Assembly (NCBI GenBank): GCA_038212405.1
Contig: JBBQUN010000002.1
Location: forward strand, 1 to 61,178
Direction: 5' to 3'
Length of the DNA: 61,178 nt
Source of the DNA: Acidimicrobiales bacterium
GTDB taxonomy: Bacteria; Actinomycetota; Acidimicrobiia; Acidimicrobiales; SZUA-35
The translations under genes were made by a program, and so were the position numbers. Below the pieces are notes generated by a model that worked only from the letters and a program-made list of their open reading frames with translations, made no database searches and had not been told where the DNA came from. This document shows, piece by piece, positions 2,921-20,891 of this stretch; position 1 is the stretch's first letter; each line of letters begins with the position of its first letter.

Positions 2921-3027
2921 CGGTTCAGTGTGGTTCCCCGGCGATCGGTCTGCACCTTCGTCGAGAGCGCAGCGGTCGAATGACCCACGTCGTTGTGACT
3001 GGGCCGGCGGTGCACCATCATGACGGC

Positions 3028-4731: not shown

Positions 4732-4761
4732 GCCCGGTCACCGTTCCGACGCCATGAGCCG

Positions 4762-5505: not shown

Positions 5506-5509
5506 CGGC

Positions 5510-5794
5510 TCATTCGTTGGAGACCACCGCACCGAGATCGACGAGGTCGGCCATCACCTGTTCCATGTCGCTTCGGACAACATCGAGCGTGACATCAAAG
5601 ATCTCGACCAGTTCCTCCGCCAATTGCTCGACCGACACCGGTCGCTCGAGAGACGACCACACGATCGCCATCGGCGCTCCGAAGTGATTGACCTGGTCTT
5701 GCCCCGGTGGAATGAGAGCGACACCCTCGAGGACACGACGCCACAACACGTCGACCCGTCGTTGATACAACGGCGGTGCGTCTCGCTCAGTCAT
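5510..5794 (-). CDS. PqqD-family RRE protein, copy 2
   Basis: Start at MTERDAPPLYQRRVDVLWRRVLEGVALIPPG..VSVEQLAEELVEIFDVTLDVVRSDMEQVMADLVDLGAVV (PqqD pattern). Its ATG overlaps the stop of the upstream nucleotidyltransferase gene by 8 nt. Confidence 0.7.
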   Translation of the reverse strand: MTERDAPPLYQRRVDVLWRRVLEGVALIPPGQDQVNHFGAPMAIVWSSLERPVSVEQLAEELVEIFDVTLDVVRSDMEQVMADLVDLGAVVSNE

Positions 5795-6959: not shown

Positions 6960-7010
6960 TCCTCAGACTCGCCTCGGACCAGCGAGTCCTGCCACCGACA
7001 TCACAACGGC

Positions 7011-7928
7011 TCAGAAGAGTTCGAGCGATCCGAGGCTGAGCGCCAGGTTGTCCAAGCTGGGCGTGTTCGCATTGGCGAGTGTCCGCCATGTGAGTCTCGG
7101 GCCCAGTGGTGGTGCGGGCACGAATCCGTCTCGGAGGCCGAGACCGGCACCGATGGCCACGTCCGCTCGTGCCTCTCGGAGTAGCGAACCGATCGGCAGC
7201 GACGGAGCAAACACATCGCAGATCGAGAGTTCTCGCACCGAACCCCGAGTGCGCAACCGCACCACGGCTTCATCGGTGAACCGGTAGCCAAGAGGAGAGA
7301 AGCCGTAGCGCCAAGCCAGGTAGTCAGCCGAGATGGGCGTATGCCACCCGCTCGGAGGGTTCCACCTGTCGGCCAGGGCGGCAAGGTCAGGCGAGTCGGT
7401 TCCGATGCCCGACGGTTCGCCCCACTTGCCAGCGGCGACTCTGCTTCGAAGCAGTCGTGGCAGGGCGGTGGCGCTGCGAGGCCGTACGGCGATCGGTGCC
7501 CGCCCGACATCGGTCCAGCCCATCTTCAGATAGCCGGGCCGAGACTGATCGTTCGGCGTGTTGAAAACGCCATCGAAGCCCTCGGCCGTCAAGCTCTCCA
7601 CTGCTGCCCTCGTGAGCTTCGTGAATATGCCCTTGCCCTGATGCGAGGGCAGTGTTGCGGTGTCGACGGCACGAACCATCTGGAGCGTTTGAGCTCCACG
7701 TGCGAGCTGCCAACGCATCATCACCCGCACGCCGACGATGTCATCGTGATCGACAGCGACCCAGATCGGCGAGGGCCCGAAGTGATTGTCGCGATGCTTC
7801 CACCGAAAGAAGTCGACGTTGGGGTCGCCCGGCTTCCAGCCGAGAGCAGCGCCACAGCAAGCGACAACTGCCTCGAACTCGTGGTCTTCGGCTTGTCGGA
7901 TCTCAACGTCGTCGGTCACGACCACCAT
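7011..7928 (-). CDS. GNAT-family N-acetyltransferase
   Basis: 305 aa. The acetyl-CoA binding region reads MVRAVDTATLPSHQGKGIFTKLTRAAVESL (Q/RxxGxG/A motif). It lies on the same strand upstream of nucleotidyltransferase 1. Confidence 0.7.
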   Translation of the reverse strand: MVVVTDDVEIRQAEDHEFEAVVACCGAALGWKPGDPNVDFFRWKHRDNHFGPSPIWVAVDHDDIVGVRVMMRWQLARGAQTLQMVRAVDTATLPSHQGKGIFTKLTRAAVESLTAEGFDGVFNTPNDQSRPGYLKMGWTDVGRAPIAVRPRSATALPRLLRSRVAAGKWGEPSGIGTDSPDLAALADRWNPPSGWHTPISADYLAWRYGFSPLGYRFTDEAVVRLRTRGSVRELSICDVFAPSLPIGSLLREARADVAIGAGLGLRDGFVPAPPLGPRLTWRTLANANTPSLDNLALSLGSLELF

Positions 7929-8064
7929 TCTCGCAGCAGACGAGGCAACCCTGCTCGCGTTGAGGTTCTCGTTCCGGTGCGGTTACGAGCAGAGCAAGCC
8001 ATGCCCTCGGTGCCAGCTCACTCGCTACCGGCGAAGCGAACCTCGAGCTGCATGTAGGGGATTC

Positions 8065-8616
8065 CTAGATCGGGGTACAGACCGCTACGTCGTCGTCGTC
8101 GGTACAGATGACGGTGAATCGGAACTGCGAGCTGGCGTTGCCACTCGACTTCAGCACGGTCGGCACGCTGATCGACACCGTGCCACCGGCGGGGTTGATT
8201 ACGGTATTCGTGGCAATCACCGAGCCGGCGCCGTTCCCCCCGGCCCGCTGGTAAATGCGGAGAATACAGCTGGCGTTCACGAAGCCAGTGGTGACGGTGA
8301 TGGTCGAGACCCCGTCTGCGCAGATACCGGAGGTCGTGACACCGGTAAGCCCATTCAAGTTTGCCATCAGCTTGGTGATCGTTGTGGTTTCGCTTGCGCC
8401 GCTGCCACAACTTCCTCCCTGATTGCTGGGCTCCCATGTCGAGTCGAACGACTGCACGGTGCCACTGCACACAGCGGCGTAGGCCGGACTGGTTCCGAGG
8501 ATTCCGACCCCGGGACCTGCCCATGCTGCAACGCCGACACCGGTTGCAACACCGAGTTTGAGTATCGACCGGCGGTCGGTCTGCTTCGCGTTCGATGACT
8601 CTGTCATTTCGTCCAC
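8065..8616 (-). CDS. Tat-signal secreted protein with six Cys, unknown function
   Basis: The N-terminus has the twin-arginine motif TDRRSILKLGVATGVGVAAWA and a likely AYA cleavage site. The mature part of about 135 aa is Thr/Ser/Gly-rich and beta-like, with 6 Cys. I recognise no family motif. Confidence 0.6.
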   Translation of the reverse strand: MDEMTESSNAKQTDRRSILKLGVATGVGVAAWAGPGVGILGTSPAYAAVCSGTVQSFDSTWEPSNQGGSCGSGASETTTITKLMANLNGLTGVTTSGICADGVSTITVTTGFVNASCILRIYQRAGGNGAGSVIATNTVINPAGGTVSISVPTVLKSSGNASSQFRFTVICTDDDDVAVCTPI

Positions 8617-8706
8617 CCCAGATTCTCCCGCCAGGCACAGCCACCTAGAGTGGCAAAGCTACTGCAGGAACAGTGGGGATGCAACGATCGGCTAGCGTCA
8701 AGCACA

Positions 8707-8994
8707 ATGACTCATGAGTATCGGCGAGTTGCCTCGCCATTTCGAGCGATCGACTCGATGGTCCTCGTCTACAGCCCCTCGCAACAAGAGGTCGTGGTTC
8801 TCTCTGAACTCGCCGCAGCAGTGTGGCAGCTGCTCGAAGTACCGCGAAGCAGCGAGCAGCTTGTCGCAGCAATCGACGGCGGCGGCATCGCCGGCCCCAC
8901 TACGCAGAGCGTCGGGTTGGTGCTCAATACCATCAAGTCCCAAGTCGATGGCGCGTTGAGGAACCTTCGGAAGGTCGGACTTGTCCACCCGTGA
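8707..8994 (+). CDS. PqqD-family RRE protein, copy 3
   Basis: ATG 8707 lies inside ORF 8650..8994. Sequence: MTHEYRRVASPFRAIDSMVLVYSPSQQEVVVLSELAAAVWQLLEVPRSSEQLVAAID...ALRNLRKVGLV. Its 3' end overlaps the next gene by 14 nt. Confidence 0.65.
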   Translation: MTHEYRRVASPFRAIDSMVLVYSPSQQEVVVLSELAAAVWQLLEVPRSSEQLVAAIDGGGIAGPTTQSVGLVLNTIKSQVDGALRNLRKVGLVHP

Positions 8995-10060
8995 ACAGCT
9001 CTTCGCCCTGGCGGCTCGAGCGGCGGTAGGTCATGTTGACCTGCCGATCTCGATCGATGACGCTGCGATACCGGCAATCGTCGCGCTGGCAGGAAACGAG
9101 CGGTTGCTGCCGCTCGCCGCTCACGGGTTGCAGCACCTTCCCGACGAGTGGAAGCCCGACGGCTGGGACGAGCTCGTGTTTGCAACAGCTCGTGATGCGG
9201 TCCTCATCGAGGCGAGCATGCTCGAAGCGCACGGCCTCTTGAGCGCCGACGGCATTCGGGTCATGGCGATCAAAGGCATCGCCACTGCGCATCTCGACTA
9301 CGACGACCCTGGTCTGCGCCAGGTCGGCGACGGCGATATCCTCGTCCCGTACCAGCAGCATCTCGATGCCATCGACATCTTGAGCGGTGCCGGATGGATT
9401 GCGCCATCGGCAACGCTGCCGAGTCACCGCGACGCAGTGCACGCCGTTCCGATGCGAGGCCCACTCGGCCGAGACGTCGACGTTCACCAGCATCTCGCGC
9501 CACGAGCGCTCGGTGTGCTTCTGGATCAAGCCGATTTTTTCGCCCACGCAACGACCTTCGAGTTGGGCGACACCCGACTCGGGGCGCCATCGGTGGCCCA
9601 TCGCCTCCTCCACGCCGCCGTGCATTACGAGGCATCGCCGGGTCGTTACAAGCGACTCTCCGGGCTGGTCGATGTCCTCTTGATAGCCCACCGTCACGCG
9701 GTCAACTCAAGCGAACTATGTGCGACCGCCGACGAGTTGGGATTGAGGTTCCTCCTCGAGCGTGCTCTGCGGCGAGCGTCGGCACTCAGCGGGCTCGCCC
9801 TGCCCGCCGAATGGGTCGACGCATTTGCTCGTCCGTGCGCAAAGCCGGATCGGCTCCTCGTCGCCGCTTACAACGGCGAGACACGGCGACCGGTACTTGA
9901 AGAACTGGCGTACATACGACTCGCCGGCGGTCCGGTCGACAAGGTCCGTTACCTCTCGGGCTACTTTCGAACCGATGCCGCCTACCGGGAACGATTCCAG
10001 CGAGGCGGGCTGTGGTCACAAGCTCGCTACCTGGCTTCTCGTGTGCGATCACGGTCTTGA
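8981..10060 (+). CDS. Nucleotidyltransferase family protein (NTP_transf_5-like), copy 2
   Basis: 359 aa with a TTG start. Signature VMAIKGIATAHLDYDDPGLRQVGDGDILVPYQQHLDAIDIL. Confidence 0.75.
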   Translation: MSTREQLFALAARAAVGHVDLPISIDDAAIPAIVALAGNERLLPLAAHGLQHLPDEWKPDGWDELVFATARDAVLIEASMLEAHGLLSADGIRVMAIKGIATAHLDYDDPGLRQVGDGDILVPYQQHLDAIDILSGAGWIAPSATLPSHRDAVHAVPMRGPLGRDVDVHQHLAPRALGVLLDQADFFAHATTFELGDTRLGAPSVAHRLLHAAVHYEASPGRYKRLSGLVDVLLIAHRHAVNSSELCATADELGLRFLLERALRRASALSGLALPAEWVDAFARPCAKPDRLLVAAYNGETRRPVLEELAYIRLAGGPVDKVRYLSGYFRTDAAYRERFQRGGLWSQARYLASRVRSRS

Positions 10061-10717
10061 ACCCGAGTTCGGGCGGAGCGCACCGTAGAGGTCCGGACCG
10101 AACTCGACCAGCGGTTCGAGCAGTGTCGCTGCGTCGATGCGGTGCTGGTGATCGCCATTGCTGATGCGCCTGGCGATGAGCCATATCCGTTGAGCCAGCG
10201 ATGCCGGGGCAGACAAAGGCACACCGGTGAGCAGCACGATCCTCGTCAACTCCAGATCGAGTCGGTGGAGTCTCATGTTCGGGTCGATGTCGAGCACGGT
10301 CGTCGGAAGCAACGCTGCACCCAACGAGGCCAGTCGACGCTCCGACGCCACGAAGTCCGATCCCACGGGCTCGAACCCCACGGCTCGATCACGCCACCGA
10401 ACCGAGCGCATCGCCAGCCTCGCATCAGGAGGTTGCGGCGGATCGGCGAGAACGTGCTCGACCAGCGATGCGAGCGTCATCCCGGCAGCAACGGCGTCTC
10501 GTTCCCTGGCTACCACGCGCCCGCGCCAGTCGAGGATCAAGAGCATCGCTGAGCGGCCGGATCCCGATCGCTGTACCGCGAAGGCGGTGAAGGCATCGTC
10601 ATCGATTCGTGGCGTCGCCTGCCCCTCGAGCCATATGGGTGCAGCCGTGTCGAACACTGCCGGATCCTCCGACACGACCTTGAGCGAGCCATTGGCGAGC
10701 TCGATTCGTTGCTGCAT
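10049..10717 (-). CDS. Hypothetical protein (last gene of the HprK2-PqqD4 operon)
   Basis: 222-aa ORF with good third-position bias and no recognisable motif. It starts 27 nt downstream of PqqD copy 4. Its 3' end overlaps converging nucleotidyltransferase 2 by 12 nt. Confidence 0.45.
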   Translation of the reverse strand: MQQRIELANGSLKVVSEDPAVFDTAAPIWLEGQATPRIDDDAFTAFAVQRSGSGRSAMLLILDWRGRVVARERDAVAAGMTLASLVEHVLADPPQPPDARLAMRSVRWRDRAVGFEPVGSDFVASERRLASLGAALLPTTVLDIDPNMRLHRLDLELTRIVLLTGVPLSAPASLAQRIWLIARRISNGDHQHRIDAATLLEPLVEFGPDLYGALRPNSGSRP

Positions 10718-10744
10718 GGACCCGACCGGGCCCTTCGCCAGCAG

Positions 10745-11095
10745 TCAAGGACTCGGCGGGTCGAAGAACGTCGGGTTGTCGGGCCACGCCCCTTCGATCG
10801 TTTCAGCGTCGGCGAGCAGACCTTCGAGACGGAGGAGTTGCTCCACACGAAGAACCTCGCCGATCGCCACATCTCTCATCACTCCTACCTCGGCGACGAC
10901 ATCGTTGACGAGGTCGCCCATTTGTCCTTCGCCGTCGAAGCAACGGGCGAGGATGGATGCGACAGGATCGAGAAGGACGGGCGCCGGTCGATTCGACGCC
11001 CACGCGATCGACTCGGTGTCGAACGCGCGCACCAGCACGTCCGTTGCCAACGTTGGAACAGCTCGATCCTCGAAGTTCGGTTTTCGGCGGTTCAT
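10745..11095 (-). CDS. PqqD-family RRE protein, copy 4
   Basis: 116 aa. Sequence ..VLLDPVASILARCFDGEGQMGDLVNDVAEVGVMRDVAIGEVLRVEQLLRLEGLL.. fits the PqqD pattern. It has an ATGA start/stop overlap with the upstream kinase gene (11092-11095). Confidence 0.6.
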   Translation of the reverse strand: MNRRKPNFEDRAVPTLATDVLVRAFDTESIAWASNRPAPVLLDPVASILARCFDGEGQMGDLVNDVVAEVGVMRDVAIGEVLRVEQLLRLEGLLADAETIEGAWPDNPTFFDPPSP

Positions 11096-12261
11096 CCTGT
11101 GCGCAATCCCTTCTGCTCGAGTTCGACGAGGAGTCGCTCTGTCCGTTCATCGGCCCCGCCGTCGCAGAACCTGACCCAATCACGTGTATGTTCCGCGTCG
11201 AGCGCAACGAACTGCATCGACGAGTCGATGAGGAGACTCGCCCCATCGATCTCGAGCATCGAGACACCCGCAGTTCGGCCGGTGGTCGAGGCCGCTCGCC
11301 ATTGGAGGGCTCCCGGGCGTCTCGGGCCAGACAGGTGGATCTCGAGCGCTTTCTCCACCGATTCGAGTGCACCTGAGCGAAGACGGATTGCGGTAGCCGC
11401 AGCCAAGAGACGACCGAGTGACAGCACACCGCCGAGGCCGGCGCGCTCAGCGTCCATCACGTGGTCCCGCATCACCTCGACCAACGCATCGATTGGGTGC
11501 GCGATCGACAGCTCCAAAGAATCAACACTGCCGGGCCCCGGTTGGAGTAGCACGATCAGCCCAACCGGGTGGTCATCGGCGCTGACGCGTCCCAGTGCAG
11601 AAGCTCGAACGAGTCGGCCCGCCCCGTGCTGTCGGATGGGAAGACCGTGATCGGCAAGTGTCGGCAGCAGATCGAGGGTGCCGGAGCGAAGGGCGACGGG
11701 TTTCGGGTAGGTCGAGATCTGCGGACTGTCCGAATCGATCGCCACCATCTCGTCCGACAGATAGCACCAGCCGGACTGGAGAAGGTGAGCGGACAGCGTC
11801 GACTTTCCCGTGCGCCGCTTGCCGAGCACCAGAGCGGCGGCGCCGCCACGAGCAAGCGCGGCGGCGTGAAGATGCATTCGCCCCTCATCAGATGCCAAGG
11901 AAAGGCGATTCACCTCTCGCGCAACAGCCCAGAGCGCGTCGGCAATCGAATCGACTTGACGCCAACACCCGTCGAACAAATCGACCATGACGGCCGAGTC
12001 GGCGACGTCGATCGTGGCCGTCGCCAACGGTTGCCGACTCATTGTGTCGGGGTGGCTCACGAGGTCACCGAATACGGCGATCGCCACCTCGACCACCGCT
12101 TGGTCGTTCGACGCAATCTCGAAGACGAACGCGGTCGACGCAAATGCCGGTGTGCGGCTCGGCCGGCTGTCAGGGGGCCTCATGGACCCAGCAATCGCTC
12201 GCAATAGTGTGCGACCATCGATGTCCCTGGCCGGTAGGTCCGAGCCCGGTCGCACGCACAA
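11092..12261 (-). CDS. HPr-kinase-like putative peptide kinase, copy 2 (long form)
   Basis: 389 aa. Motif pattern: LHAAALARGGAAALVLGKRRTGKSTLSAHLLQSGWCYLSDEMVAID (P-loop plus acidic pair). Confidence 0.75.
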   Translation of the reverse strand: MCVRPGSDLPARDIDGRTLLRAIAGSMRPPDSRPSRTPAFASTAFVFEIASNDQAVVEVAIAVFGDLVSHPDTMSRQPLATATIDVADSAVMVDLFDGCWRQVDSIADALWAVAREVNRLSLASDEGRMHLHAAALARGGAAALVLGKRRTGKSTLSAHLLQSGWCYLSDEMVAIDSDSPQISTYPKPVALRSGTLDLLPTLADHGLPIRQHGAGRLVRASALGRVSADDHPVGLIVLLQPGPGSVDSLELSIAHPIDALVEVMRDHVMDAERAGLGGVLSLGRLLAAATAIRLRSGALESVEKALEIHLSGPRRPGALQWRAASTTGRTAGVSMLEIDGASLLIDSSMQFVALDAEHTRDWVRFCDGGADERTERLLVELEQKGLRTG

Positions 12262-13123: not shown

Positions 13124-13279
13124 ATGTCTATGAACTACGAATCACCATCAATCCGTGAGCTCGGCCGAATCGCCGAACTCACGCTTGGCCAAAACGGAAC
13201 ATCACTCGACGGCAATCGGTCGTACACGCAAACGGGTGGCGGCAACAATGAGGACGATCCGACGGACGACACGCCCTGA
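13124..13279 (+). CDS. Lasso-peptide precursor A2 (51 aa)
   Basis: ATG 13124 sits 3 nt after GGAGGG; the track shows a longer TTG-started 71-aa version. Translation: MSMNYESPSIRELGRIAELTL / GQNGTSLDGNRSYTQTGGGNNEDDPTDDTP. The leader fits YxxPxIxxxGxxxxxTx with the same spacing as A1. Core Gly1..Asp8 allows an 8-residue macrolactam. Confidence 0.8.
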   Translation: MSMNYESPSIRELGRIAELTLGQNGTSLDGNRSYTQTGGGNNEDDPTDDTP

Positions 13280-13287: not shown

Positions 13288-14982
13288 TCATGTGGCTCTG
13301 AGCCAACGATCGATCGAGACTAGCGAAGATGCCGGGATCACTGATCCCGGCATCTTCGCTTTTGCCGCATCGACGAGTCGATCCACCGCCTCGCCATCGA
13401 CCTCAGCAAGCTCGCGTACCGGGCCGTGTCGCGCCAACTCCAGCGTCCCCCCGGGCAGAGAAGCCCACGCCGTCGCCGAAAACTCGGCCTTCGTGGTGCG
13501 ATTACGGACGTTCTCGGGCAGCCGAGGACCAAAGGCAACGCGTTGGAGTGAGCGATCGGCGCCACACCTCCTCGGCCAGCCGGGAGGGAGACCGTAGGTC
13601 GCTTCGATGAGATCGATATCGAAGAAGGGGTGCGTGAGTCTGATGTCGAGGGGATCGGTGACGACGGCGAGGTCCTCCAATAGCCGAGTGATCCACCCAT
13701 CTCGAAGCATCTCGGACCGCCGGTCGATCGCGGGGTCACTCGTGTCACGGACCGCCGGACCGATCACCCGGCGCTCGATGCCGAGGTCTCGGCGGTACGC
13801 CGGCTCGAGCAGCGACAAGCCGAACGACGCGCTTCGTCGGCGCCACGCCAGCTCGGCGACCACCGGTCGTACCAGCAGGGGCCAGGTGGCTCGAGGGTGA
13901 GCGGTGATCCACCGGCCAAGCCGAGCGAGTTCCGCACGGTCGCCGGTACGAAGGGCGGAGAGAACTCGAGGGCCGACGAGTTGTGCGCCGAACGCATCGT
14001 CACCCCCCAAACCCGTGACCACCGTGGTGGCGCCCTGTTCTCGAAAACCGGAATGCAGCGATCGAGCCATCAAGCCGTTCGGTGGTGGAGGCGGTACTCG
14101 CCACTCAGCTACGAAAACATCGAGCCACGCCGGGCCGGCGAGAAACGGCGGAGCGTCGAGCAGCGGAAGGCCAAGGTGTCGGGCGACGGCATCGGAGTAC
14201 TTCCGCTCGTCCGCACGTTCGTCGTCGAAGACGATCCGGCCCAGGATCATGGCATCGGTCATCGAACTCGCGGTTGCCGCGACACTCGACGAGTCGAGTC
14301 CGCCGCTCACCTCGAATGCGGTCGTCTCGCCGATCGCCAGCCGCATGCGCACGGCGTCGTCGAGCAGGGAGCGGACTTCCTCGATGGCCTTCTCCCAGGA
14401 GATCGATCGTCGCTGGATCCGGGGTCGACGGGTTGCGCGGACCGATGGGATCGCGCTGCTGGGGACGGTGAGGGCGGTGCCCGGCAAGAGCCGCGTCACA
14501 CCGAGGTGGACGGTTCGGTCCTCGTGGCCGAGCGGGCCGGCCAGCATCTCGGCGATCGTGTGATGATCGGGACGTCGATCCACCCACGAGTTGGCGAGGA
14601 TGTCTCGTTGGAGGGGACTGGCGACCATTCGACCGCTGCCGGCAGCGAAGAAGCAGGGGCGAGCGCCGATCGGGTCTCGGGCAATCGTGATCGTCTCGGC
14701 GCGCCGGTCGGCGACGATCAGAACGAAGTCGCCCTTGATCGACTCGAGCCACGCACGTCGCCCGCAGACGCTCGACACCCAGGTGGCGTCGTCCGACGCA
14801 GCACCCGTCCGATGGATCGAACCGTCGACCAGAACCCATCGCTCGTCGTCCGCCGCAACATGAATCCATTTCGATGTCGAACGCCACGCAATGGTGGCCC
14901 AGCCGAGATCGATCGTTTCGTCGAGCCCGTCGGGAATGCGGTGCGTCCGGTCAGGTCCGACCTGGACGTACCAATCGCTCAT
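13288..14982 (-). CDS. Lasso-peptide cyclase (asparagine synthetase B-like, lasso C)
   Basis: Start MSDWYVQVGPD at 14982, an ATGA overlap with the B2 stop. The PP-loop motif is FEVSGGLDSSSVAA. The N-terminal glutaminase-like domain lacks the N-terminal Cys, as in lasso cyclases. This is the only such gene in the window. Confidence 0.85.
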   Translation of the reverse strand: MSDWYVQVGPDRTHRIPDGLDETIDLGWATIAWRSTSKWIHVAADDERWVLVDGSIHRTGAASDDATWVSSVCGRRAWLESIKGDFVLIVADRRAETITIARDPIGARPCFFAAGSGRMVASPLQRDILANSWVDRRPDHHTIAEMLAGPLGHEDRTVHLGVTRLLPGTALTVPSSAIPSVRATRRPRIQRRSISWEKAIEEVRSLLDDAVRMRLAIGETTAFEVSGGLDSSSVAATASSMTDAMILGRIVFDDERADERKYSDAVARHLGLPLLDAPPFLAGPAWLDVFVAEWRVPPPPPNGLMARSLHSGFREQGATTVVTGLGGDDAFGAQLVGPRVLSALRTGDRAELARLGRWITAHPRATWPLLVRPVVAELAWRRRSASFGLSLLEPAYRRDLGIERRVIGPAVRDTSDPAIDRRSEMLRDGWITRLLEDLAVVTDPLDIRLTHPFFDIDLIEATYGLPPGWPRRCGADRSLQRVAFGPRLPENVRNRTTKAEFSATAWASLPGGTLELARHGPVRELAEVDGEAVDRLVDAAKAKMPGSVIPASSLVSIDRWLRAT

Positions 14983-15440
14983 CGCAGATCCGATGGCAAC
15001 GTACCCAGGTCGGCGCCCGTCGCAATCACCGTGTAGCTGCCAACTGCTTCCGGATCGTCGTTGACCACGGTCGTACCGATCTGGACCCATGCGTGGGCTT
15101 CGACGCTGCCGGAAGTGTTTCGAACTCCGATGACCAGCTCGGCAGCGCTGCCGTGGCGTTCCAATTCGCGCAGTAGCGTCACGGAACGTCGCAGACAGGT
15201 CGGGTGCAGCGGCAGCAACGCGAACGCGCCGTCAATCCGCTCGGCCAGCTCGACGCCCTTGGCGGTCGTGCCGGGCGGCAGGGTCTCGTCGAGCTTCTCG
15301 AGGATCGGGCGCAGGCCTCCGCGCCGTAGCTCGAGCGACGTGCGGCCGGCCCTCCACGCCAACCGGAGCGTCTGCCGGTCGACGAAGGCTGCTGCGATCA
15401 GCGCCCGGAGAGTGGCAGGCAGCCCTGCCTCAGCTCCCAA
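14979..15440 (-). CDS. Lasso-peptide B2 leader peptidase (transglutaminase-like), copy 2
   Basis: 153 aa. Signature PTCLRRSVTLLRELERHG...GSVEAHAWVQIGTTVVND (Cys/His). Confidence 0.85.
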   Translation of the reverse strand: MGAEAGLPATLRALIAAAFVDRQTLRLAWRAGRTSLELRRGGLRPILEKLDETLPPGTTAKGVELAERIDGAFALLPLHPTCLRRSVTLLRELERHGSAAELVIGVRNTSGSVEAHAWVQIGTTVVNDDPEAVGSYTVIATGADLGTLPSDLR

Positions 15441-15690
15441 TCGCGAGTCCTCTCGCCAGTAACTCGGCGACGAGTTTGTCGAAGTCGGCGGCGAGGCGTT
15501 CCGGGTCGACGTCGGGAAAGCGCCCGGTGATGGTCGCGAGCGCTGTTTGACGATCGACGTGGGTCGTTCCGACTTCCCACATGAAGGCCGCAGTCGAGTT
15601 CAGTTCGAGATACATCTCGTTGTTGGAATCGAGTACGACCATCTCGTTGTTCACTCGCCGGGCAAAAACGCCTCTCGGTGCCGAAATCAT
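15430..15690 (-). CDS. PqqD-family RRE protein, copy 5 (lasso B1 of the C/B2 operon)
   Basis: Sequence: MISAPRGVFARRVNNEMVVLDSNNEMYLELNSTAAFMWEVGTTHVDRQTALATITGRFPDVDPERLAADFDKLVAELLARGLAI. ATG 15690 lies 8 nt after GGAGGGA; the maximal ORF reaches 15729. It overlaps the B2 start by 11 nt. Confidence 0.75.
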   Translation of the reverse strand: MISAPRGVFARRVNNEMVVLDSNNEMYLELNSTAAFMWEVGTTHVDRQTALATITGRFPDVDPERLAADFDKLVAELLARGLAIGS

Positions 15691-15768
15691 CGTTGTTCCC
15701 TCCATGTCTCCACCCGTCGGCCGTTTCACCCATCCATCAAGGAGTCACATGCCAGTATTCTCCGCCCT

Positions 15769-17556
15769 GTGACCGAGCACCAGACGACCAGTGTGTTCGA
15801 TGCGCTTCGGATGGCCTTGGGTTTCGTCTGGCGGAGCGCTCGCTGGACGCTGGTCATGCTCGCGCTTGCCCAGGTGCTCGCGGCGCTGGCGCTCCTCATG
15901 TTGCTGCTGTCGGTTCGATCGCTGATCGCCGGGCTCGAGGCCGGTGACCAACTGAGTTCGGTCACCTCGTCGGTCGTCGTCTCGTCGCTTGCGTTCCTCG
16001 TGATCGGTGTGGTGGGTGTCGGCTCACAGTCGCTGCAGCTCCTCATGGCGGAGAAGACGAACCGCATCGTGCAGCATGACATCATGCAGATCGCCGTTGG
16101 CGTGCCCTACTCGAGCTACGAAGATCCGGGCTTCCACGATCTGCTCGAGCGGACGACGCAGCGGACGGGAAACAGCTCCCTCCGACTGGTCGGCGGTGTG
16201 CTGACCATCCTCGAGTCGGTCGCCGGGATGTGTGCCGTTGCCATCGCGCTGGCGCGTACCGTGCCGGCGCTGCTTCCGATTCTGCTCGTGGTTGCGCTGC
16301 CGCTGCTCGTCGCTTCCCGAGTCGGCGCACGCATCAACTACCAGATGGCGCTCGAAGTGACCACCGACGATCGGCTGCGTCGATCGATGTTGCTTGCGCT
16401 CACGAGCAAACAGACGGCGCGGGAGGCCCGGACGCTCGGGTTGGGGGCATCACTCGGCACGCGGTGGGATCGGCTCTGGGATCAGCGCATCGCCCTCGTG
16501 CGATCGTTCGCGCTGCGCCGCATGTTCGTCTTGGCCGCGGCCGCCACGCTGTCGGCCTTGATGACCGGCGGCGTGCTCTTCGTGCTGGTGCGAGCAACGG
16601 CGAACGGGACGATCGGTCTCGCCGACGCCTCGGTGGCGGTGTTGGCGTTCCAGCAACTGCTGCAGCGCACCCGCTCCACCGCTCAGGCGACAGGGAACTT
16701 GCGGGAGTCCGCCCTCTTCCTCAGCGACTTCGAATCCCTCGACCAGTACCGGCGGCCCGCTCTTGACGACGGTCTGGCGCTCCCGACGCCCGAGGTGGTG
16801 TCGTTCGAGGATGTCTCGTTTCGATATCCGGGTGGACGGGGCGATGTGTTGGTCGGGACGAGCTTCGAGCTGCGCAGAGGCGAGATGACGGCGCTGGTGG
16901 GTGCCAGTGGGGCTGGCAAGTCGACCCTCGTCCACCTCTTGGCCGGCCTGTATCAGCCGATGACGGGACGGATCCTGTGGGACGGCGCCGACCTTGCCGG
17001 TGTGGACGATCGTGATCGTTGGCGGTCCACCGCGGTGACGTTCCAGGATTTCGGTCGCTTCGACCTCACCGCCAAGGAGAACGTCGAATTGGGAGACGCC
17101 GCTCGCAACGATGCCGAGGCGCTCCGGCACTCGATGGCGGTCGCCGGGATCAGCGACGTGGTCGAGCGTCTCCCCAGCGGCTTGGACACGTTCCTGAGCC
17201 GACTCTTTCCCGGGGGAACCGAGCTCTCTGTGGGGCAGTGGCAACGGCTGGCCGTGGCGCGAGCGCTGTATCGGCGCGCCGCGCTGTTGATCCTCGACGA
17301 GCCCTCGGCGGCCCTGGATGCCGAGTCCGAGGTCGAGTTGATCGATGCGTTGCGGGCCGAGTGCGACGAGCGAGTCGTGCTCGTCGTCTCTCATCGATTC
17401 AGCACGGTGCGTCGAGCAGACCGCATTCTGGTGCTCGACGCTGGTCGCATCGTGGAAGACGGCAGCCACGATGACTTGATGGGCCTCGACGGTCGCTACG
17501 CCCGACTGTTCCGACTCCAGATGGCCGAACCGCCGGCTGCAGTCGACCCTGGCTGA
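15769..17556 (+). CDS. ABC transporter, fused permease/ATPase (lasso-type exporter), copy 2
   Basis: GTG 15769 is in frame with ORF 15547..17556. TM domain, then Walker A GASGAGKST, signature LSVGQWQRLAVARAL and Walker B LLILDEPSA. Confidence 0.85.
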   Translation: MTEHQTTSVFDALRMALGFVWRSARWTLVMLALAQVLAALALLMLLLSVRSLIAGLEAGDQLSSVTSSVVVSSLAFLVIGVVGVGSQSLQLLMAEKTNRIVQHDIMQIAVGVPYSSYEDPGFHDLLERTTQRTGNSSLRLVGGVLTILESVAGMCAVAIALARTVPALLPILLVVALPLLVASRVGARINYQMALEVTTDDRLRRSMLLALTSKQTAREARTLGLGASLGTRWDRLWDQRIALVRSFALRRMFVLAAAATLSALMTGGVLFVLVRATANGTIGLADASVAVLAFQQLLQRTRSTAQATGNLRESALFLSDFESLDQYRRPALDDGLALPTPEVVSFEDVSFRYPGGRGDVLVGTSFELRRGEMTALVGASGAGKSTLVHLLAGLYQPMTGRILWDGADLAGVDDRDRWRSTAVTFQDFGRFDLTAKENVELGDAARNDAEALRHSMAVAGISDVVERLPSGLDTFLSRLFPGGTELSVGQWQRLAVARALYRRAALLILDEPSAALDAESEVELIDALRAECDERVVLVVSHRFSTVRRADRILVLDAGRIVEDGSHDDLMGLDGRYARLFRLQMAEPPAAVDPG

Positions 17557-18416
17557 CGCCGGAACACCCGGTCGAGCCCTGCCCTGACATCGCTCGGCGG
17601 CAGGAAGGCCAGGACGGCCACGATCATGATCGGCGTGAAGATGCCGACTCGGAGAAAGATCGCAAAGACGAGATGGAGCGCCACCGAGGTGGCGACGCCT
17701 ACACGTGGTCGAGTCACGAGCAGGATCGGCAGCACCAACTCGGTGAGCAGCACCAGGTAGGTCAGGGCGGTGGTGCCGAGGACGGTCTCACTGAGCAACG
17801 AGGGCATCGGCACCGACGCGACGCTCGGGTTGTGCAGCGCGGCATACACCGCTTCGCCCTGTCGCCACGTCGATCCTTGGAGCTTCCAGATCACGCTCGT
17901 GCAATAGACCACGATGACCTGGAGCCGGACCGATGCGACGAACAGCCGTGGTCGCTCGCGACCGGGAGCGGAGAGATTCCCGGTCAGGGTGGAGTGTGAA
18001 CCCAGGAACAGGGCAACGACGGCCCACATCAGGATCAGGCGGAGGAGCTGGTCGCCGGCGTTGATCGCGGCGGGCTGGAGTCGTTGGATCGACGTCACAC
18101 CGATGAACGCGATGACCACGCCGATCCGCGATGCTCGCCCGAGGGTCAGCGAGACACCGACGGCGGCGATGCCGAGGAGCACCAGAGTCACCCACCAGGC
18201 TGGGGAGCCGGCGAAGAACAGGGTCCAACTGAATCGACGGCCGGCTTCGGTGGGGAAGATCGACGAGTCGGAAAGGAGGGAGCGGGCGTCGAGGAGCCAC
18301 GAGAGTGACCACCAGCAGATCAACGCACCGAGGAGCGTTCTGACGAGCACCTCGGTATCTGGCTGCTCGGCGGCGAAGAATCGGCGGTGGAGCTGGCCGA
18401 GGATCGTGGTCGTCAC
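17496..18416 (-). CDS. HTTM-domain (vitamin-K-dependent gamma-carboxylase-like / SdpB-like) membrane protein
   Basis: 306 aa, polytopic. Pattern: LVRTLLGALICWWSLSWLLDARSLLSDSSIFP ... RLQVIVVYCTSVIWKLQGSTWRQGEAVYAAL ... LTELVLPILLV...ALHLVFAIFLRVGIFTPIMI, as in HTTM/SdpB-family proteins. Confidence 0.65.
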   Translation of the reverse strand: MTTTILGQLHRRFFAAEQPDTEVLVRTLLGALICWWSLSWLLDARSLLSDSSIFPTEAGRRFSWTLFFAGSPAWWVTLVLLGIAAVGVSLTLGRASRIGVVIAFIGVTSIQRLQPAAINAGDQLLRLILMWAVVALFLGSHSTLTGNLSAPGRERPRLFVASVRLQVIVVYCTSVIWKLQGSTWRQGEAVYAALHNPSVASVPMPSLLSETVLGTTALTYLVLLTELVLPILLVTRPRVGVATSVALHLVFAIFLRVGIFTPIMIVAVLAFLPPSDVRAGLDRVFRRQPGSTAAGGSAIWSRNSRA

Positions 18417-18991
18417 CCGTCGAACCCTCCCGCCGCCGGTTCCGCCTGCGAGTCGGTGGCCAGGATGCCCTCGTCGAGAGAGAAGATCGGTGTCGTGATT
18501 TCTGTCGGCTCACCATCGTTGCCTCGGCCAGGATCGAGGTTGGTGACTCGCACCAGGACGACGTCGACGACGTCCATGCCACGGTCCTCGGCATCGCTTG
18601 CCAGGTTCTCGGCCAACGGTTGCCAGAGCTCGTAGTTCTCGTTCGACACCATCTCCTTCGAGACCTTCTCCCAACGTCGGTCTCTCAAGAGCTGCCACTG
18701 CGGCGGAACGAGCGGTTCGTAGATCTCGATGGTGCCGTCGCTCGCGTGGAGCTCGACACGGAGATGTGGTGCGGTGGTTCCGGGGTTGGGAGCGAACATC
18801 GCCCAGCCCTGCACGCCGGCGGTCAGGTCGTAGAGCGGAGCCAGTCGGGCTTGTGCGGGGCGACCTACCCGCGGGTGAGGAAACGCGGCGAGGAGAGCTC
18901 CGACGACGAACGCCGCGTACACCAGTACCCGAAGACGGTCAGTCCTGGGCAACGAGTTGCTCCAGCAGACGACGGGCCGACTCCAATCCAT
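18413..18991 (-). CDS. Membrane-anchored protein, possibly SdpA/DUF5819-like partner of the HTTM protein
   Basis: It has an ATGA overlap with the HTTM gene start, one N-terminal TM helix (VLVYAAFVVGALLAAF) and the motif VQGWAMFAPNP. Start ATG 18991 is uncertain; GTG 18922 would avoid overlapping the upstream kinase gene. The family assignment is from memory and position only. Confidence 0.4.
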   Translation of the reverse strand: MDWSRPVVCWSNSLPRTDRLRVLVYAAFVVGALLAAFPHPRVGRPAQARLAPLYDLTAGVQGWAMFAPNPGTTAPHLRVELHASDGTIEIYEPLVPPQWQLLRDRRWEKVSKEMVSNENYELWQPLAENLASDAEDRGMDVVDVVLVRVTNLDPGRGNDGEPTEITTPIFSLDEGILATDSQAEPAAGGFDG

Positions 18992-19802
18992 CACGGCCCC
19001 GCCCGACGCAGAGTCGAACAGGGATTGTTTGCTCGACAACGGCACCGAGATGATCGAAGACGGCCGGTAGGGAGCCGCCCGCGTCGAGATCGGCATGAAA
19101 GGTGGCTCCGAAGAGCAACGCGTGGGCCCGGCCCCGACCGAGTTCGATCAGGCGAGACACCGAGGTGTCGTTCGGCTCGACGAAGACCAGTGCACCCAGC
19201 TCGATCGGTGCGTCGAGGAGGTCGAAGGTTCCGAGCCTGAGCCGGGACTTTCCGGCAATCGGCGTCGTGTCGGCAGCGCCCAGCAGCGCGACGCTTTGGT
19301 CGGTCAGTCGAATCGATGGGTAGGTGGCGTCGGCAAGCGGTGGTTTGTCGGCACTGATGACGATGCCATCGTCACCGCCGACCTGCCAGCCGCAGTAGGC
19401 GAGATGCGACACCAGAGTGGACTTTCCCGAGCCGGAGGGTCCGATCAGGGCAAAACCCTTCCCCGCCTTGGCTGCCAAGGCTGCGTGCACCACGAGGTGG
19501 TTGGTCCAGGCAAGCCAGAGCGGGAGGATGTGGTCGAGGACGATGTGCTCGAGCGACTGCTCGTCGAGCGTTCGGTTGAAGCGGACCTGGTTCCCGATGA
19601 CTTCGGCGCAGCCTGCCTCCATGAAGTCGACCACGAGGCGATCGCCGTCGGTCCAGTGGCGGCGCCACAGCGTTCCATCGAGGCGGCGGGACTCCACACC
19701 AGGCGGGTCCGGCACGACGATCGGACCGGGTGCGAGTACCTCGAGCTGACGCTCGCTGCGCACCTGGGTCCAGATGTCGGTGAAATTGCTGGATGTCGGC
19801 AT
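18939..19802 (-). CDS. HPr-kinase-like putative peptide kinase, copy 3
   Basis: 287 aa. Motif pattern: VVHAALAAKAGKGFALIGPSGSGKSTLVSHLAYCGWQVGGDDGIVI. Confidence 0.75.
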   Translation of the reverse strand: MPTSSNFTDIWTQVRSERQLEVLAPGPIVVPDPPGVESRRLDGTLWRRHWTDGDRLVVDFMEAGCAEVIGNQVRFNRTLDEQSLEHIVLDHILPLWLAWTNHLVVHAALAAKAGKGFALIGPSGSGKSTLVSHLAYCGWQVGGDDGIVISADKPPLADATYPSIRLTDQSVALLGAADTTPIAGKSRLRLGTFDLLDAPIELGALVFVEPNDTSVSRLIELGRGRAHALLFGATFHADLDAGGSLPAVFDHLGAVVEQTIPVRLCVGRGRDGLESARRLLEQLVAQD

Positions 19803-19889: not shown

Positions 19890-20891
19890 TCAGCTGACGA
19901 TGAGCCTGCGAGATTGGTAGGCGAGATAGCGGAGTCGGTTTCGGGTGCTCGTCTGATTGGCGAGAACCGCGATGGTCTCGCGGGCGACGCTCCGACTCGT
20001 CCGCAGGTAGGCGCGGTTGATGGCGGACTTGGAGATTCGTGGCGGCGGTGGAGGCTCGGGGTTTCCGATGGCCACCGCCAGCCACCGAGCCACCGAGACC
20101 AGGTCGATGATGCCGAACAGGCGCGCCAGATCGTCGACGCGATCTTCGTCGAGGTCTTGGCGTGTTTGGATGAGGGCGACGTCGACCAGCGACGAAAGCC
20201 GTCGGTGCTCGGGCGGTGACAAGAAGAGGTGCCCGGCTGCGTGGACGAGCCGGCCTGCAGGGTCGAGCGCATGGCCCAACTCGTTCGGTAGCGGCATCAA
20301 CTGACCGTACAGCTCCTTCGAGCCGTGAGGCCCGAAGCGGAACAGGCGATGGTGCACATCGAGTTCGATGCCGCTCGGCGTTCGAAAGGTCTGCTCGACG
20401 AGGAGGTCGGTCGGTTCACCCGCCTTCAAGGGTTCGTAGTGTTGGCCGAGTGTCTGGCACGCCCGAGCGAAATCGCCGTCAGGCACGAGGAGGTCGACAT
20501 CACCAGTGTGGCGAACCGCGCCGGCGGGGTAGTCGAGGTGTGACGTGGCGAGACCCTTGAGGATCACTGCGTCGACGCCGATTTCCGCGAGTTGGTTGAC
20601 GGTTCGGCGGGCAGCCGAGGTGAGGTGGAGAGCGAGGACGGTGACGTTGTGGGCTTCGTCGGCGGTGTCACCGAGAGCGGTCAACAGCGATCGGATCCTG
20701 TGCCGTTCGGCAAAGGCGAGCAGAGGCGGTGTGAGCTGGAGGTCGAGCGTGGTCGCACCCGCCAGGTGATCGATGCAGGCGCGCACCAACTCTGCGCCGC
20801 CAACCGGGGCGGCCTCGTCGACGAGTCGGATTGGGTCGGTACGTATCTGCGGCGAAAGATGCACACTGCCAGGTCTTGTCGAGGAGGTCAT
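19890..20891 (-). CDS. Nucleotidyltransferase family protein (NTP_transf_5-like), copy 3
   Basis: 333 aa. Signature AVILKGLATSHLDYPAGAVRHTGDVDLLVPDGDFARACQTL. Its ATG overlaps the stop codon of the upstream sugar phosphotransferase gene (ATGA at 20888-20891). Confidence 0.75.
   Translation of the reverse strand: MTSSTRPGSVHLSPQIRTDPIRLVDEAAPVGGAELVRACIDHLAGATTLDLQLTPPLLAFAERHRIRSLLTALGDTADEAHNVTVLALHLTSAARRTVNQLAEIGVDAVILKGLATSHLDYPAGAVRHTGDVDLLVPDGDFARACQTLGQHYEPLKAGEPTDLLVEQTFRTPSGIELDVHHRLFRFGPHGSKELYGQLMPLPNELGHALDPAGRLVHAAGHLFLSPPEHRRLSSLVDVALIQTRQDLDEDRVDDLARLFGIIDLVSVARWLAVAIGNPEPPPPPRISKSAINRAYLRTSRSVARETIAVLANQTSTRNRLRYLAYQSRRLIVS

What the first reader, a model, noticed from the sequence alone, without database searches (positions are those of the whole stretch)
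17496..18991. HTTM/SdpB-like membrane protein and SdpA-like partner embedded in the lasso tailoring operon
A 306-aa polytopic protein with the HTTM pattern is translationally coupled (ATGA at 18413-18416) to a single-pass protein carrying a W.MFAPNP motif. The HTTM pattern is that of the vitamin-K-dependent carboxylase-like domain, and SdpB is a member of that family.

In Bacillus, SdpA and SdpB are needed to mature the SdpC peptide toxin. An SdpAB-like pair sitting between a lasso ABC exporter and a kinase/NTase pair is not a described lasso accessory. It could be a membrane-associated maturation, modification or immunity step.
Basis: partly seen in the sequence, partly recalled or inferred. 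Interest (0 to 1): 0.65.

Follow-up and report, generated by a model that had tools for sequence, protein, structure and literature searches.

The report
Carboxylase-like membrane pair in lasso cluster
Two overlapping genes inside a soil bacterium's lasso-peptide gene cluster encode the two halves of a membrane enzyme related to the vitamin-K-dependent carboxylase; I found no paper reporting such an accessory for lasso peptides, and what it does to the peptide is still unknown.

Summary
17496-18416(-) encodes a 306-aa polytopic HTTM protein (Pfam PF05090, 33.0 bits against a cutoff of 27.7). It overlaps by 4 nt the stop of an upstream single-pass protein carrying GWAMFAPNPG. The overlap reads GTGA, not ATGA.

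The partner is not SdpA by any curated model. It is a divergent DUF5819 homologue (hhalign 98.7%, E 2e-16, against Pfam-annotated members).

HTTM and DUF5819-like domains are translationally coupled in every split locus I read, and fused into one ORF in four distant MAGs. The HTTM keeps the residues aligning with human GGCX N158, K218 (the catalytic base), H287 and F299. The pair is therefore best read as a split GGCX-like enzyme whose active site faces outward.

The close clade (60-70% identity: window, L001, L002, P0003 contigs) always shows kinase, then partner, then HTTM, converging on an ABC exporter. Lasso B1/B2/C genes lie on the same contig wherever it is long enough. Distant relatives (23-36% identity) have no RiPP genes within 10 kb and often sit beside sortase or DCC1-like genes.

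So a generic envelope module appears to have been recruited into one rare lasso lineage. Its chemistry and its substrate are inferred, not shown. No paper in the searched library links HTTM or SdpB with lasso peptides.

The parts
17496..18416 (-). HTTM-domain polytopic membrane protein (306 aa, GTG start), read as the catalytic subunit of a split GGCX-like enzyme
   Evidence: PF05090 33.0 bits against a cutoff of 27.7. A subfamily profile hits human GGCX residues 113-321 at E 2e-5. GGAGGG lies 8 nt upstream of the GTG. Homologues are 48-63% identical.
17883..17885 (-). Codon of Lys178 (in WKLQG), aligned with the catalytic base Lys218 of human GGCX
   Evidence: HMMER alignment and MAFFT alignment of 13 bacterial HTTMs plus a GGCX fragment. 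K178 is invariant. N119, H248 and F260 align with GGCX N158, H287 and F299.
18413..18991 (-). Single-pass partner protein, a divergent DUF5819-family homologue; 192 aa from ATG 18991, more likely 179 aa from TTG 18952
   Evidence: hhalign of the clade profile against Pfam-annotated DUF5819 members: 98.7%, E 1.9e-16, 139 columns. 28 of 68 relatives hit PF19136. The window protein alone scores 13.3 bits against a cutoff of 27.1. One TM helix at residues 17-40. AF2 model pLDDT 80.7.
18779..18808 (-). Hallmark motif G62-W-A-M-F-A-P-N-P-G71 of the partner
   Evidence: W63, F66, P68 and P70 are invariant and Q61 nearly invariant across 71 family members. The same motif (QNWGVFAPNPR) is the core of the DUF5819 members.
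18413..18416 (-). GTGA start/stop overlap between the partner and the HTTM gene (translational coupling)
   Evidence: Sequence read directly. The same 4-nt overlap occurs in L001, L002, the P0003 contigs, L009, L011, L012, L013 and the P0029 contig.
18939..19802 (-). HPrK/ScmC-like P-loop kinase whose stop overlaps the partner start
   Evidence: Weak hits to TIGR04352 HprK_rel_A (E 9e-9) and TIGR04355. Homologues carry a precomputed weak PF27840 ScmC hit. The gene is conserved and overlaps the partner in L001, L002 and the P0003 contigs.
19890..20891 (-). NTP_transf_5 nucleotidyltransferase
   Evidence: PF14907 74.4 bits. This is on the same strand here but on the opposite strand in L001, so it is less tightly linked than the kinase.
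15547..17556 (+). ABC exporter (maximal ORF; the true start is probably near 15800), convergent with the HTTM gene, 3' ends overlapping by 61 nt
   Evidence: ABC_tran 98.3 bits and MsbA-like full-length match. A convergent overlap of 10-22 nt is kept in L001, L002 and the P0003 contigs.
15430..15729 (-). Lasso B1 (PqqD-like RRE)
   Evidence: 58% identical to the L001 gene annotated PF05402 PqqD.
14979..15440 (-). Lasso B2 leader peptidase (transglutaminase-core)
   Evidence: 48% identical to the L001 gene annotated PF13471 Transglut_core3.
13288..15090 (-). Lasso cyclase (asparagine-synthase-like)
   Evidence: PF00733 86.5 bits. NF033535 lasso cyclase 91 bits and NF033561 70 bits, both below their curated cutoffs.
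13130..13279 (+). Candidate lasso precursor MNYESPSIRELGRIAELTL|GQNGTSLDGNRSYTQTGGGNNEDDPTDDTP
   Evidence: ORF list. It is 82% identical to a 49-aa gene in the same position in L001. The leader fits YxxPxLxxxGxxxxxTx, with Gly1 and Asp8 in the core (motif taken from my own knowledge of lasso leaders).

Best explanation

The HTTM protein is the catalytic subunit. It keeps the lysine that in GGCX deprotonates the vitamin K hydroquinone, and that site lies at the outer face of the membrane. The single-pass DUF5819-like partner supplies an extracytoplasmic, substrate-facing domain.

In this lineage a generic copy of the module has been inserted into a lasso-peptide operon. It is translated in a chain from an HPrK-like kinase gene and lies back-to-back with the ABC exporter.

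The most likely role is a late tailoring step. After the kinase and nucleotidyltransferase act in the cytoplasm and the exporter delivers the threaded peptide, the pair would use menaquinol and O2 to modify it at the outer membrane face. The conserved acidic DDPTDD tail is the most attractive target.

Shown here: family membership, the split/fused relationship, the conserved catalytic residues, and the conserved operon in the clade. Inferred: complex formation, topology, quinol use, and that the lasso peptide is the substrate.
For: Identity of the pair:
- HTTM passes the Pfam cutoff and hits GGCX in the PDB.
- K178, N119, H248 and F260 align with GGCX K218, N158, H287 and F299. They are invariant in 13 bacterial HTTMs.
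- The partner is homologous to DUF5819.

Evidence for one functional unit:
- A 4-nt start/stop overlap is present in every split locus read.
- HTTM (N-terminal) and a DUF5819-like domain (C-terminal) are fused in a single ORF in four MAGs from other phyla.
- An independent AF3 study predicts a confident DUF5819-HTTM complex that resembles whole GGCX and the fused bacterial carboxylase MloH (bioRxiv 10.64898/2026.08.19.745780).

Topology: 15 K+R on the proposed inner loops against 6 on the outer loops, over equal total loop length. This places K178 and N119/D122 outside, as in GGCX.

Link to the lasso pathway:
- The block kinase, partner, HTTM, convergent ABC is conserved in the window, L001, L002 and the P0003 contigs. 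This holds despite changes around it: the NTase is flipped in L001 and replaced by another lasso cluster in L002.
- The partner (66%) and HTTM (60%) are better conserved between the window and L001 than B2 (48%), the cyclase (42%) or the ABC exporter (33%).

Precedents:
- SdpAB are needed to process secreted SdpC (PMC6818787).
- HTTM proteins occur in linaridin clusters (PMC9927463).
- MloH carboxylates an aspartyl residue (PMC12186529).
Against: - No experiment or expression data exists. Only DNA runs from soil and salt-lake metagenomes hold the sequence.
- The lasso-linked clade is tiny, about six protein clusters that share ancestry. Conserved synteny is therefore weak evidence for function.
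- All five distant pair loci examined lack RiPP genes within 10 kb. They sit in unrelated contexts, often with sortase or DCC1-like genes.
- The position aligned with GGCX His160 is Gly, and no lumenal Glu/propeptide-binding domain is present.
- Foldseek of the partner model against the PDB gave no match to GGCX or anything else.
- The only Glu in the core peptide is not conserved, so classical gamma-Glu carboxylation is unlikely.
- The window and L001 both border polysaccharide loci, so an envelope role is possible.
Confidence: 0.35

Rival explanations
1. The pair is a general cell-envelope or secreted-protein module, the same job it does next to sortase and DCC1-like genes elsewhere. It sits in the lasso cluster only by descent within one narrow lineage and does not act on the peptide.
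For: - Five independent distant loci keep the pair without any RiPP gene within 10 kb.
- Three of them have a sortase within 3 kb and two have an adjacent DCC1-like gene.
- The window from 20.9 to 61 kb, and the flank of L001, are polysaccharide loci.
- The Bac_transf stop overlaps the NTase start.
- The lasso-linked clade is small and related by descent.
Against: - In the clade the partner start overlaps the stop of an HPrK/ScmC-like kinase. That family is known from RiPP cassettes rather than envelope biogenesis.
- The HTTM 3' end overlaps the convergent ABC exporter in all four loci.
- No sortase or DCC1-like gene was found among the ORFs scanned in the window.
- The block survives rearrangement of its neighbours.
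Confidence: 0.3
2. The pair is an SdpAB-like maturation factor without quinone chemistry. It would help cleave or release the exported peptide, for example by trimming the long acidic C-terminal tail, as SdpA and SdpB are required to turn secreted SdpC into the 42-aa SDP toxin.
For: - The best NCBIfam hit of the HTTM is the SdpB family, although below its cutoff.
- SdpAB act after secretion (PMC6818787).
- The core peptide is unusually long at 30 aa, with a conserved 14-residue Gly/Asp-rich tail.
- The predicted active face lies outside the membrane.
Against: - Neither protein reaches the SdpA or SdpB model cutoffs.
- No protease motif or family was detected in either protein.
- The GGCX catalytic Lys and the residues aligning with GGCX N158, H287 and F299 are strictly conserved, which argues for retained redox chemistry.
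- No SdpC-like or SdpI/SdpR-like genes lie nearby.
Confidence: 0.2
3. The pair is a self-protection device. It would alter or sequester the producer's own peptide, or a membrane target, at the outer face of the membrane.
For: - The pair sits beside the exporter.
- Both proteins are in the membrane and predicted to face outward.
- SDP-type loci pair toxin maturation with membrane immunity proteins (PMC6818787).
Against: - In lasso clusters the ABC exporter usually provides immunity (my own knowledge of the McjD precedent).
- No family member has been linked to immunity.
- The conserved catalytic residues suggest an enzyme.
Confidence: 0.1

Closest known systems
DUF5819 + HTTM two-gene module (AF3-predicted complex from Melghirimyces thermohalophilus, bioRxiv 10.64898/2026.08.19.745780)
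   Same: - An adjacent single-pass DUF5819 protein and an HTTM membrane protein.
- A conserved Lys, with Trp six residues downstream (K178/W184 here, K189/W195 there), and a conserved Phe.
- Predicted to form a unit resembling whole GGCX.
   Different: - The window partner falls below the Pfam DUF5819 cutoff.
- The HTTM here has no fused DCC1-like domain.
- The pair is embedded in a lasso-peptide operon and coupled to a kinase, a context the preprint passages I read do not mention.
[quoted passage not shown] PDB 9L54, 9BUM)
   Same: - A homologous HTTM membrane core, E 2e-5 over GGCX residues 113-321.
- The residues aligning with N158, K218, H287 and F299 are conserved.
- The active face is predicted on the non-cytoplasmic side.
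   Different: - 306 aa against 758 aa, with no fused lumenal domain.
- The His160 position is Gly.
- No Gla-type substrate, and the sole Glu in the core peptide is not conserved.
- Foldseek did not link the partner to GGCX.
MloH, the VKDC-like carboxylase of malonomycin biosynthesis (Law et al. 2018, as cited in PMC12186529 and the 2026 preprint)
   Same: A bacterial HTTM-type enzyme in an antibiotic gene cluster that acts on an aspartyl residue. The lasso core here has a conserved Asp-rich tail.
   Different: - MloH is one fused protein acting on a PKS-NRPS intermediate.
- The proteins here are split and sit in a RiPP cluster.
- No MloH sequence was compared directly.
SdpA/SdpB (and YitP/YitO) of Bacillus subtilis
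   Same: A small partner protein and an HTTM membrane protein encoded together in a peptide-toxin operon, and required for maturation after export. The best NCBIfam hit of the HTTM is the SdpB family.
   Different: - Both curated models fail: SdpB 42.7 bits against a cutoff of 178.4, and SdpA no hit.
- There is no SdpC-like Sec-dependent precursor and no SdpI/SdpR genes.
- The substrate here would be a lasso peptide exported by an ABC transporter.
HTTM-domain proteins of linaridin clusters (e.g. CrdG of corynaridin, PMC9927463)
   Same: An HTTM membrane protein conserved inside a RiPP gene cluster, with its mechanism unresolved.
   Different: A different RiPP class. No DUF5819 partner is mentioned in the passage I read, and no sequence comparison was done here.
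Kinase/nucleotidyltransferase tailoring of lasso peptides (paeninodin, pseudomycoidin; PMC8498205)
   Same: An HPrK-like kinase and a nucleotidyltransferase next to the lasso B1/B2/C/D genes.
   Different: - The known kinases phosphorylate a C-terminal Ser, whereas this precursor ends in Thr-Pro.
- None of the lasso tailoring systems covered in the passages I read includes an HTTM or DUF5819 protein.

Membership tests
HTTM domain (Pfam PF05090) | Score above the Pfam gathering threshold over most of the model | tested here: met
   33.0 bits against 27.7; protein residues 22-274 on profile positions 9-257 of 259.
HTTM domain (Pfam PF05090) | Polytopic membrane protein keeping the Lys equivalent to GGCX K218 | tested here: met
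   About 8 hydrophobic segments. K178 aligns with K218 and is invariant in 13 bacterial HTTMs.
[quoted passage not shown] | Fused C-terminal lumenal substrate/propeptide-binding domain and His160 | tested here: not met
   The protein ends about 30 residues after the HTTM domain. Gly121 stands at the His160 position.
[quoted passage not shown] | Quinol- and O2-dependent carboxylation activity | not testable with these tools
   Needs biochemistry.
SdpB family (NCBIfam TIGR04033) | Score above the curated cutoff | tested here: not met
   42.7 bits against 178.4, and only the C-terminal third aligns.
SdpA family (NCBIfam TIGR04034) | Match to the family model | tested here: not met
   No hit for the window protein at E<=0.01. 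Only 1 of 68 relatives hits, at E 5e-4. No Pfam SdpA hit in any of the 68.
Sdp-type toxin locus | Adjacent Sec-dependent SdpC-like precursor and SdpI/SdpR immunity genes | tested here: not met
   Neighbours are lasso, kinase, NTase and polysaccharide genes; nothing SdpC/I/R-like appeared in the Pfam or NCBIfam scans. No dedicated SdpC model search was run.
DUF5819 (Pfam PF19136) | Score above the Pfam gathering threshold | tested here: not met
   13.3 bits against 27.1, E 0.12, motif region only.
DUF5819 (Pfam PF19136) | Profile-level homology to annotated members, N-terminal TM helix, and the Q-x-W-x-x-F-A-P-x-P motif | tested here: met
   hhalign 98.7%, E 1.9e-16, 139 columns against 14 proteins carrying a precomputed PF19136 hit. 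28 of 68 relatives hit PF19136. TM helix at residues 17-40.
DUF5819-HTTM two-subunit unit | Adjacent, co-oriented, translationally coupled genes, or a fusion | tested here: met
   A 4-nt overlap in every split locus read. Fused ORFs in L005-L008.
DUF5819-HTTM two-subunit unit | Physical complex with the partner domain in the GGCX clamp position | tested here: inconclusive
   No multimer prediction was available. Foldseek of the partner model (pLDDT 80.7) against the PDB gave no hit with E<=0.001. The claim rests on the preprint.
Lasso peptide biosynthetic gene cluster | Precursor with a Thr at -2 in the leader and a Gly1...Asp8 core, plus B1 (PqqD), B2 (transglutaminase-like), C (Asn-synthase-like) and an ABC exporter | tested here: met
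   The cyclase hits NF033535 and NF033561 below their curated cutoffs. B1 and B2 are assigned through 58% and 48% identity to Pfam-annotated L001 genes.
Lasso C-terminal Ser kinase system (paeninodin type) | Precursor ends in Ser | tested here: not met
   The precursors end ...DDTP (window) and ...DDNP (L001). The requirement is described in PMC8498205.

The most novel reading that the evidence does not exclude
A lasso peptide is modified after export by a menaquinol-dependent, split GGCX-like enzyme. One possibility is carboxylation of Asp residues in the conserved DDPTDD tail, giving aminomalonate or carboxy-Asp metal-binding sites. As far as I know this would be the first vitamin-K-type post-translational modification in a RiPP, and the first assigned substrate for the widespread bacterial HTTM/DUF5819 module.
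Probability: 0.12. Interest if true: 0.85.

Novelty: new variant of a known kind. Interest (0 to 1): 0.55.

Why it matters
Bacterial HTTM/DUF5819 pairs are widespread and have no known substrate. The only functional footholds I know of are SdpAB genetics, MloH, and an AF3 model published in 2026.

A copy wired into a small, defined RiPP operon offers a tractable candidate substrate, a 30-residue lasso core. It also gives a simple readout: the peptide mass with and without the pair, and with K178A. That could show what chemistry the bacterial relatives of the vitamin K carboxylase perform.

For lasso-peptide work, it would add a membrane-bound and probably extracytoplasmic tailoring step to a pathway in which, as far as I know, tailoring has been placed in the cytoplasm. 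If instead the pair is only a neighbour, the result is a caution against reading tailoring roles from synteny within narrow clades.

Tried and rejected
- **First AF2 model of the partner.** With the 6-sequence alignment it was too poor to use (pLDDT 58). A 71-sequence alignment gave pLDDT 80.7, but Foldseek against the PDB returned nothing meaningful (best E 0.15). A fold-level link to the GGCX clamp domain could therefore not be confirmed.
- **PDB sequence search with the partner profile.** It hit only designed helical repeat proteins, which I treat as spurious.
- **Scans of public collections.** The genome-contig scan with the partner profile found no locus. With the HTTM profile it found only four distant fused forms. 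The metagenome-contig scan only re-found the L002 contig. No wider survey of lasso-linked copies was possible.
- **tblastn of the HTTM against plasmids.** It gave only distant Ralstonia and haloarchaeal HTTMs, which were not informative.
- **The 46-aa fragment upstream of the L004 pair.** I suspected it was PqqD-like, but Pfam and BLASTP gave no support, so I dropped the idea.
- **The second kinase + single-pass + polytopic triplet in L002.** I tested it for homology to the pair. It is not significant.
- **Classical gamma-carboxylation of Glu.** Rejected as the conserved reaction, because the only Glu of the core is Thr in L001.
- **Promoter and terminator scan of 15-22 kb.** It gave nothing above shuffle expectation.
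- **Expression data.** No RNA runs hold the locus.

Full report
**1. What is in the sequence**

The window has about 63% G+C. On the minus strand there is a chain of genes with short or negative spacers:
- NTP_transf_5 nucleotidyltransferase, 19890-20891 (PF14907, 74 bits);
- an HPrK/ScmC-like P-loop kinase, 18939-19802;
- a single-pass protein, 18413-18991;
- a 306-aa polytopic protein, 17496-18416.

The last gene passes the Pfam HTTM gathering threshold: 33.0 bits against 27.7, covering almost the whole model.

The overlap between the last two genes is real, but it reads GTGA (a GTG start over a TGA stop), not ATGA. GGAGGG lies 8 nt upstream of the GTG.

The partner probably starts at TTG 18952, not ATG 18991. 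That start has a GGAG 9 nt upstream. It also matches the database gene call (179 aa) and the 178-182 aa homologues. With that start the partner overlaps the kinase stop by 14 nt.

The partner has one TM helix at residues 17-40 and the motif GWAMFAPNPG.

**2. The surroundings are a lasso cluster**

The HTTM gene converges on an ABC exporter (ending at 17556), and the two 3' ends overlap by 61 nt.

Beyond the exporter, on the minus strand, lie three genes:
- B1 (15430-15729) and B2 (14979-15440), which are 58% and 48% identical to L001 genes annotated PqqD and Transglut_core3;
- an asparagine-synthase-like cyclase, 13288-15090.

A 49-aa ORF on the opposite strand (13130-13279) reads MNYESPSIRELGRIAELTL|GQNGTSLDGNRSYTQTGGGNNEDDPTDDTP. 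Its leader fits the YxxPxLxxxGxxxxxTx recognition motif (from my own knowledge), and the core offers a Gly1-Asp8 ring. L001 has an 82%-identical gene in the same place.

The core does not end in Ser, which the characterised lasso kinases require (PMC8498205). Its only Glu is Thr in L001.

**3. What the two proteins are**

*HTTM protein.*
- The NCBIfam SdpB model is the best hit but lies far below its cutoff, 42.7 bits against 178.4.
- A profile of the subfamily hits human GGCX chains in the PDB at E 2e-5, over GGCX residues 113-321.
- In that alignment, and in a MAFFT alignment of 13 bacterial HTTMs plus the GGCX fragment, four positions are invariant: K178 aligns with GGCX K218 (the catalytic base, from my own knowledge), N119 with N158, H248 with H287, and F260 with F299.
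- The His160 position is Gly.

*Partner.*
- Alone it matches no curated model. DUF5819 scores 13.3 bits against a cutoff of 27.1, and SdpA gives nothing.
- A profile of the six clade members, searched against 1.84 billion representatives, finds 130 clusters. These are similar-sized proteins aligned over most of their length.
- 28 of 68 of these hit Pfam DUF5819, and one hits TIGR04034 SdpA at E 5e-4.
- hhalign of the clade profile against 14 Pfam-annotated DUF5819 proteins gives 98.7% probability and E 1.9e-16 over 139 columns.
- The partner is therefore a divergent DUF5819 homologue and at most a remote relative of SdpA.

**4. The two proteins are one unit**
- In every split locus I read, the partner stop and the HTTM start overlap by 4 nt.
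- In four MAGs from other phyla (L005-L008), an HTTM domain at residues ~1-300 and a partner-like domain at ~310-470 or later lie in a single ORF. That is the domain order of GGCX.
- A 2026 preprint independently predicts, with AF3, a confident DUF5819-HTTM complex. It resembles whole GGCX and the fused carboxylase MloH, and the DUF5819 domain sits where the GGCX clamp domains sit.
- I could not reproduce that at the fold level. The partner model (pLDDT 80.7) has no Foldseek match in the PDB.
- The positive-inside rule places both termini of the HTTM inside. K178 and N119/D122 then fall on the outer face: 15 against 6 K+R over equal loop length. This agrees with the lumenal active site of GGCX (from my own knowledge).

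**5. Is the pair tied to lasso peptides?**

*The close clade* is rare: six protein clusters, from metagenomes only.
- Wherever a contig is long enough (window, L001, L002, several P0003 contigs), the block kinase, partner, HTTM, convergent ABC is present. Lasso B1/B2/C genes lie on the same contig where it reaches them.
- The flanks differ. In L001 the NTase is on the other strand. In L002 a second, different lasso cluster precedes the kinase.
- Between the window and L001, the partner (66%) and HTTM (60%) are more conserved than B2, the cyclase, the ABC exporter or the NTase.

*Outside the clade* the picture changes. I read five independent loci whose partners are 23-36% identical to the window partner: L009, L011, L012, L013/L014 and the P0029 contig.
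- All keep the coupled pair, and none has a RiPP gene within 10 kb.
- L013/L014 show partner, HTTM, DCC1-like and sortase in one operon.
- L012 has a sortase two genes downstream, and the P0029 contig has one 2 kb upstream.
- L011 has a DCC1-like gene immediately upstream.

So the module is generic and envelope-associated, and one lineage carries it inside a lasso cluster. The window itself borders a 40-kb polysaccharide locus, as does L001.

**6. Mechanism**

The best-supported reading is a split GGCX-like enzyme that works at the outer face of the membrane. It would act as a late tailoring or maturation step on the exported lasso peptide.
- The conserved Lys, and the residues aligning with GGCX N158, H287 and F299, argue for retained quinol chemistry.
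- The absence of His160 and of a conserved Glu argues against classical Gla formation.
- The Asp-directed precedent of MloH makes the conserved DDPTDD tail the most attractive target.

This part is inference.

The rivals are:
- an envelope function unrelated to the peptide;
- an SdpAB-like processing role, since SdpAB are required after secretion;
- immunity.

**7. Comparison and novelty**

HTTM proteins are already known in two RiPP-type settings, SDP and the linaridins, and in one antibiotic pathway, MloH. The DUF5819-HTTM pairing has been described computationally.

What is new here:
- the context, a lasso-peptide operon with translational coupling to an HPrK-like kinase;
- the observation that this copy is a diverged offshoot of a sortase/DCC1-associated module.

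Full-text searches for 'lasso peptide' with HTTM or SdpB, and for PF05090, found no paper linking HTTM to lasso peptides. The library omits most subscription journals, so this is weak negative evidence.

**8. Verdict**

It is a new variant of a known kind, of moderate interest, and directly testable by a knockout plus mass spectrometry.

Noticed in passing
L002 6726-8842: A second triplet follows the lasso B2-C-ABC genes directly, with overlapping boundaries: an HPrK-like kinase, a single-pass protein (7506-8012) and a polytopic membrane protein (8009-8842). The architecture matches kinase-partner-HTTM, but homology is not significant (hhalign E 0.38 and 0.61). The best local matches nevertheless fall on the two hallmark motifs: LAKLASADFRSGQ against WKLQGSTWRQGE, and GFGMFS..SPG against GWAMFAPNPG.
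   Followed up: partly
window 1065-12261: A second set of RiPP-type accessory genes with no second cyclase: methyltransferase (1065-2498), ABC exporter (2812-4731), two more NTP_transf_5 genes (5787-6959-, 8981-10060+), a GNAT (7011-7928-), a possible Tat-signal secreted protein (8065-8616-; below threshold), and a weak PqqD-like hit (10745-11095-; E 0.0075, below the Pfam cutoff) overlapping a second HPrK-like kinase (11092-12261-).
   Followed up: partly
window 13130-13279 (+): The precursor lies on the strand opposite to B1-B2-C and converges on the cyclase. The same arrangement is seen in L001. The 30-aa core has a conserved acidic tail (DDPTDD) and no C-terminal Ser, so the target of the two HPrK-like kinases is unclear.
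   Followed up: partly
window 17496-17556: The HTTM gene and the convergent ABC exporter overlap at their 3' ends by 61 nt. A 10-22 nt convergent overlap is kept in L001, L002 and the P0003 contigs.
   Followed up: partly
window 20888-20891 and 20888-61023: The stop of a Bac_transf sugar transferase overlaps the NTase start (ATGA). The rest of the window is a large polysaccharide locus: two CapD-like genes, DegT, a hexapeptide acetyltransferase, several GT4 genes, two Wzz/ParA-type tyrosine-kinase-like genes, flippases, a heparinase-like gene and a sulfotransferase. G+C dips to 55% at 28-34 kb.
   Followed up: partly
L013 10001-12787; L012 10001-12818; L011 9382-11550: Distant partner-HTTM pairs lie in operons with DCC1-like thiol-disulfide oxidoreductase and sortase genes. 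This hints at a general role in processing secreted or surface proteins, and possibly a redox partner analogous to VKOR.
   Followed up: partly
L005 990-2882; L006 9818-11170; L007 1279-2817; L008 2955-4493: Single ORFs of 450-630 aa fuse an N-terminal HTTM domain to a C-terminal DUF5819-like domain. They come from Dehalococcoidia, Bacteroidetes, Proteobacteria and Halobacteriovoraceae MAGs.
   Followed up: yes
L004 1-138 (-) and 1710-1844 (+): The most divergent clade member (HTTM 48% identical) has no kinase directly upstream of the partner. A short divergent ORF there looked PqqD-like by eye, but Pfam and BLASTP gave no support. The contig is too short to judge the context.
   Followed up: yes
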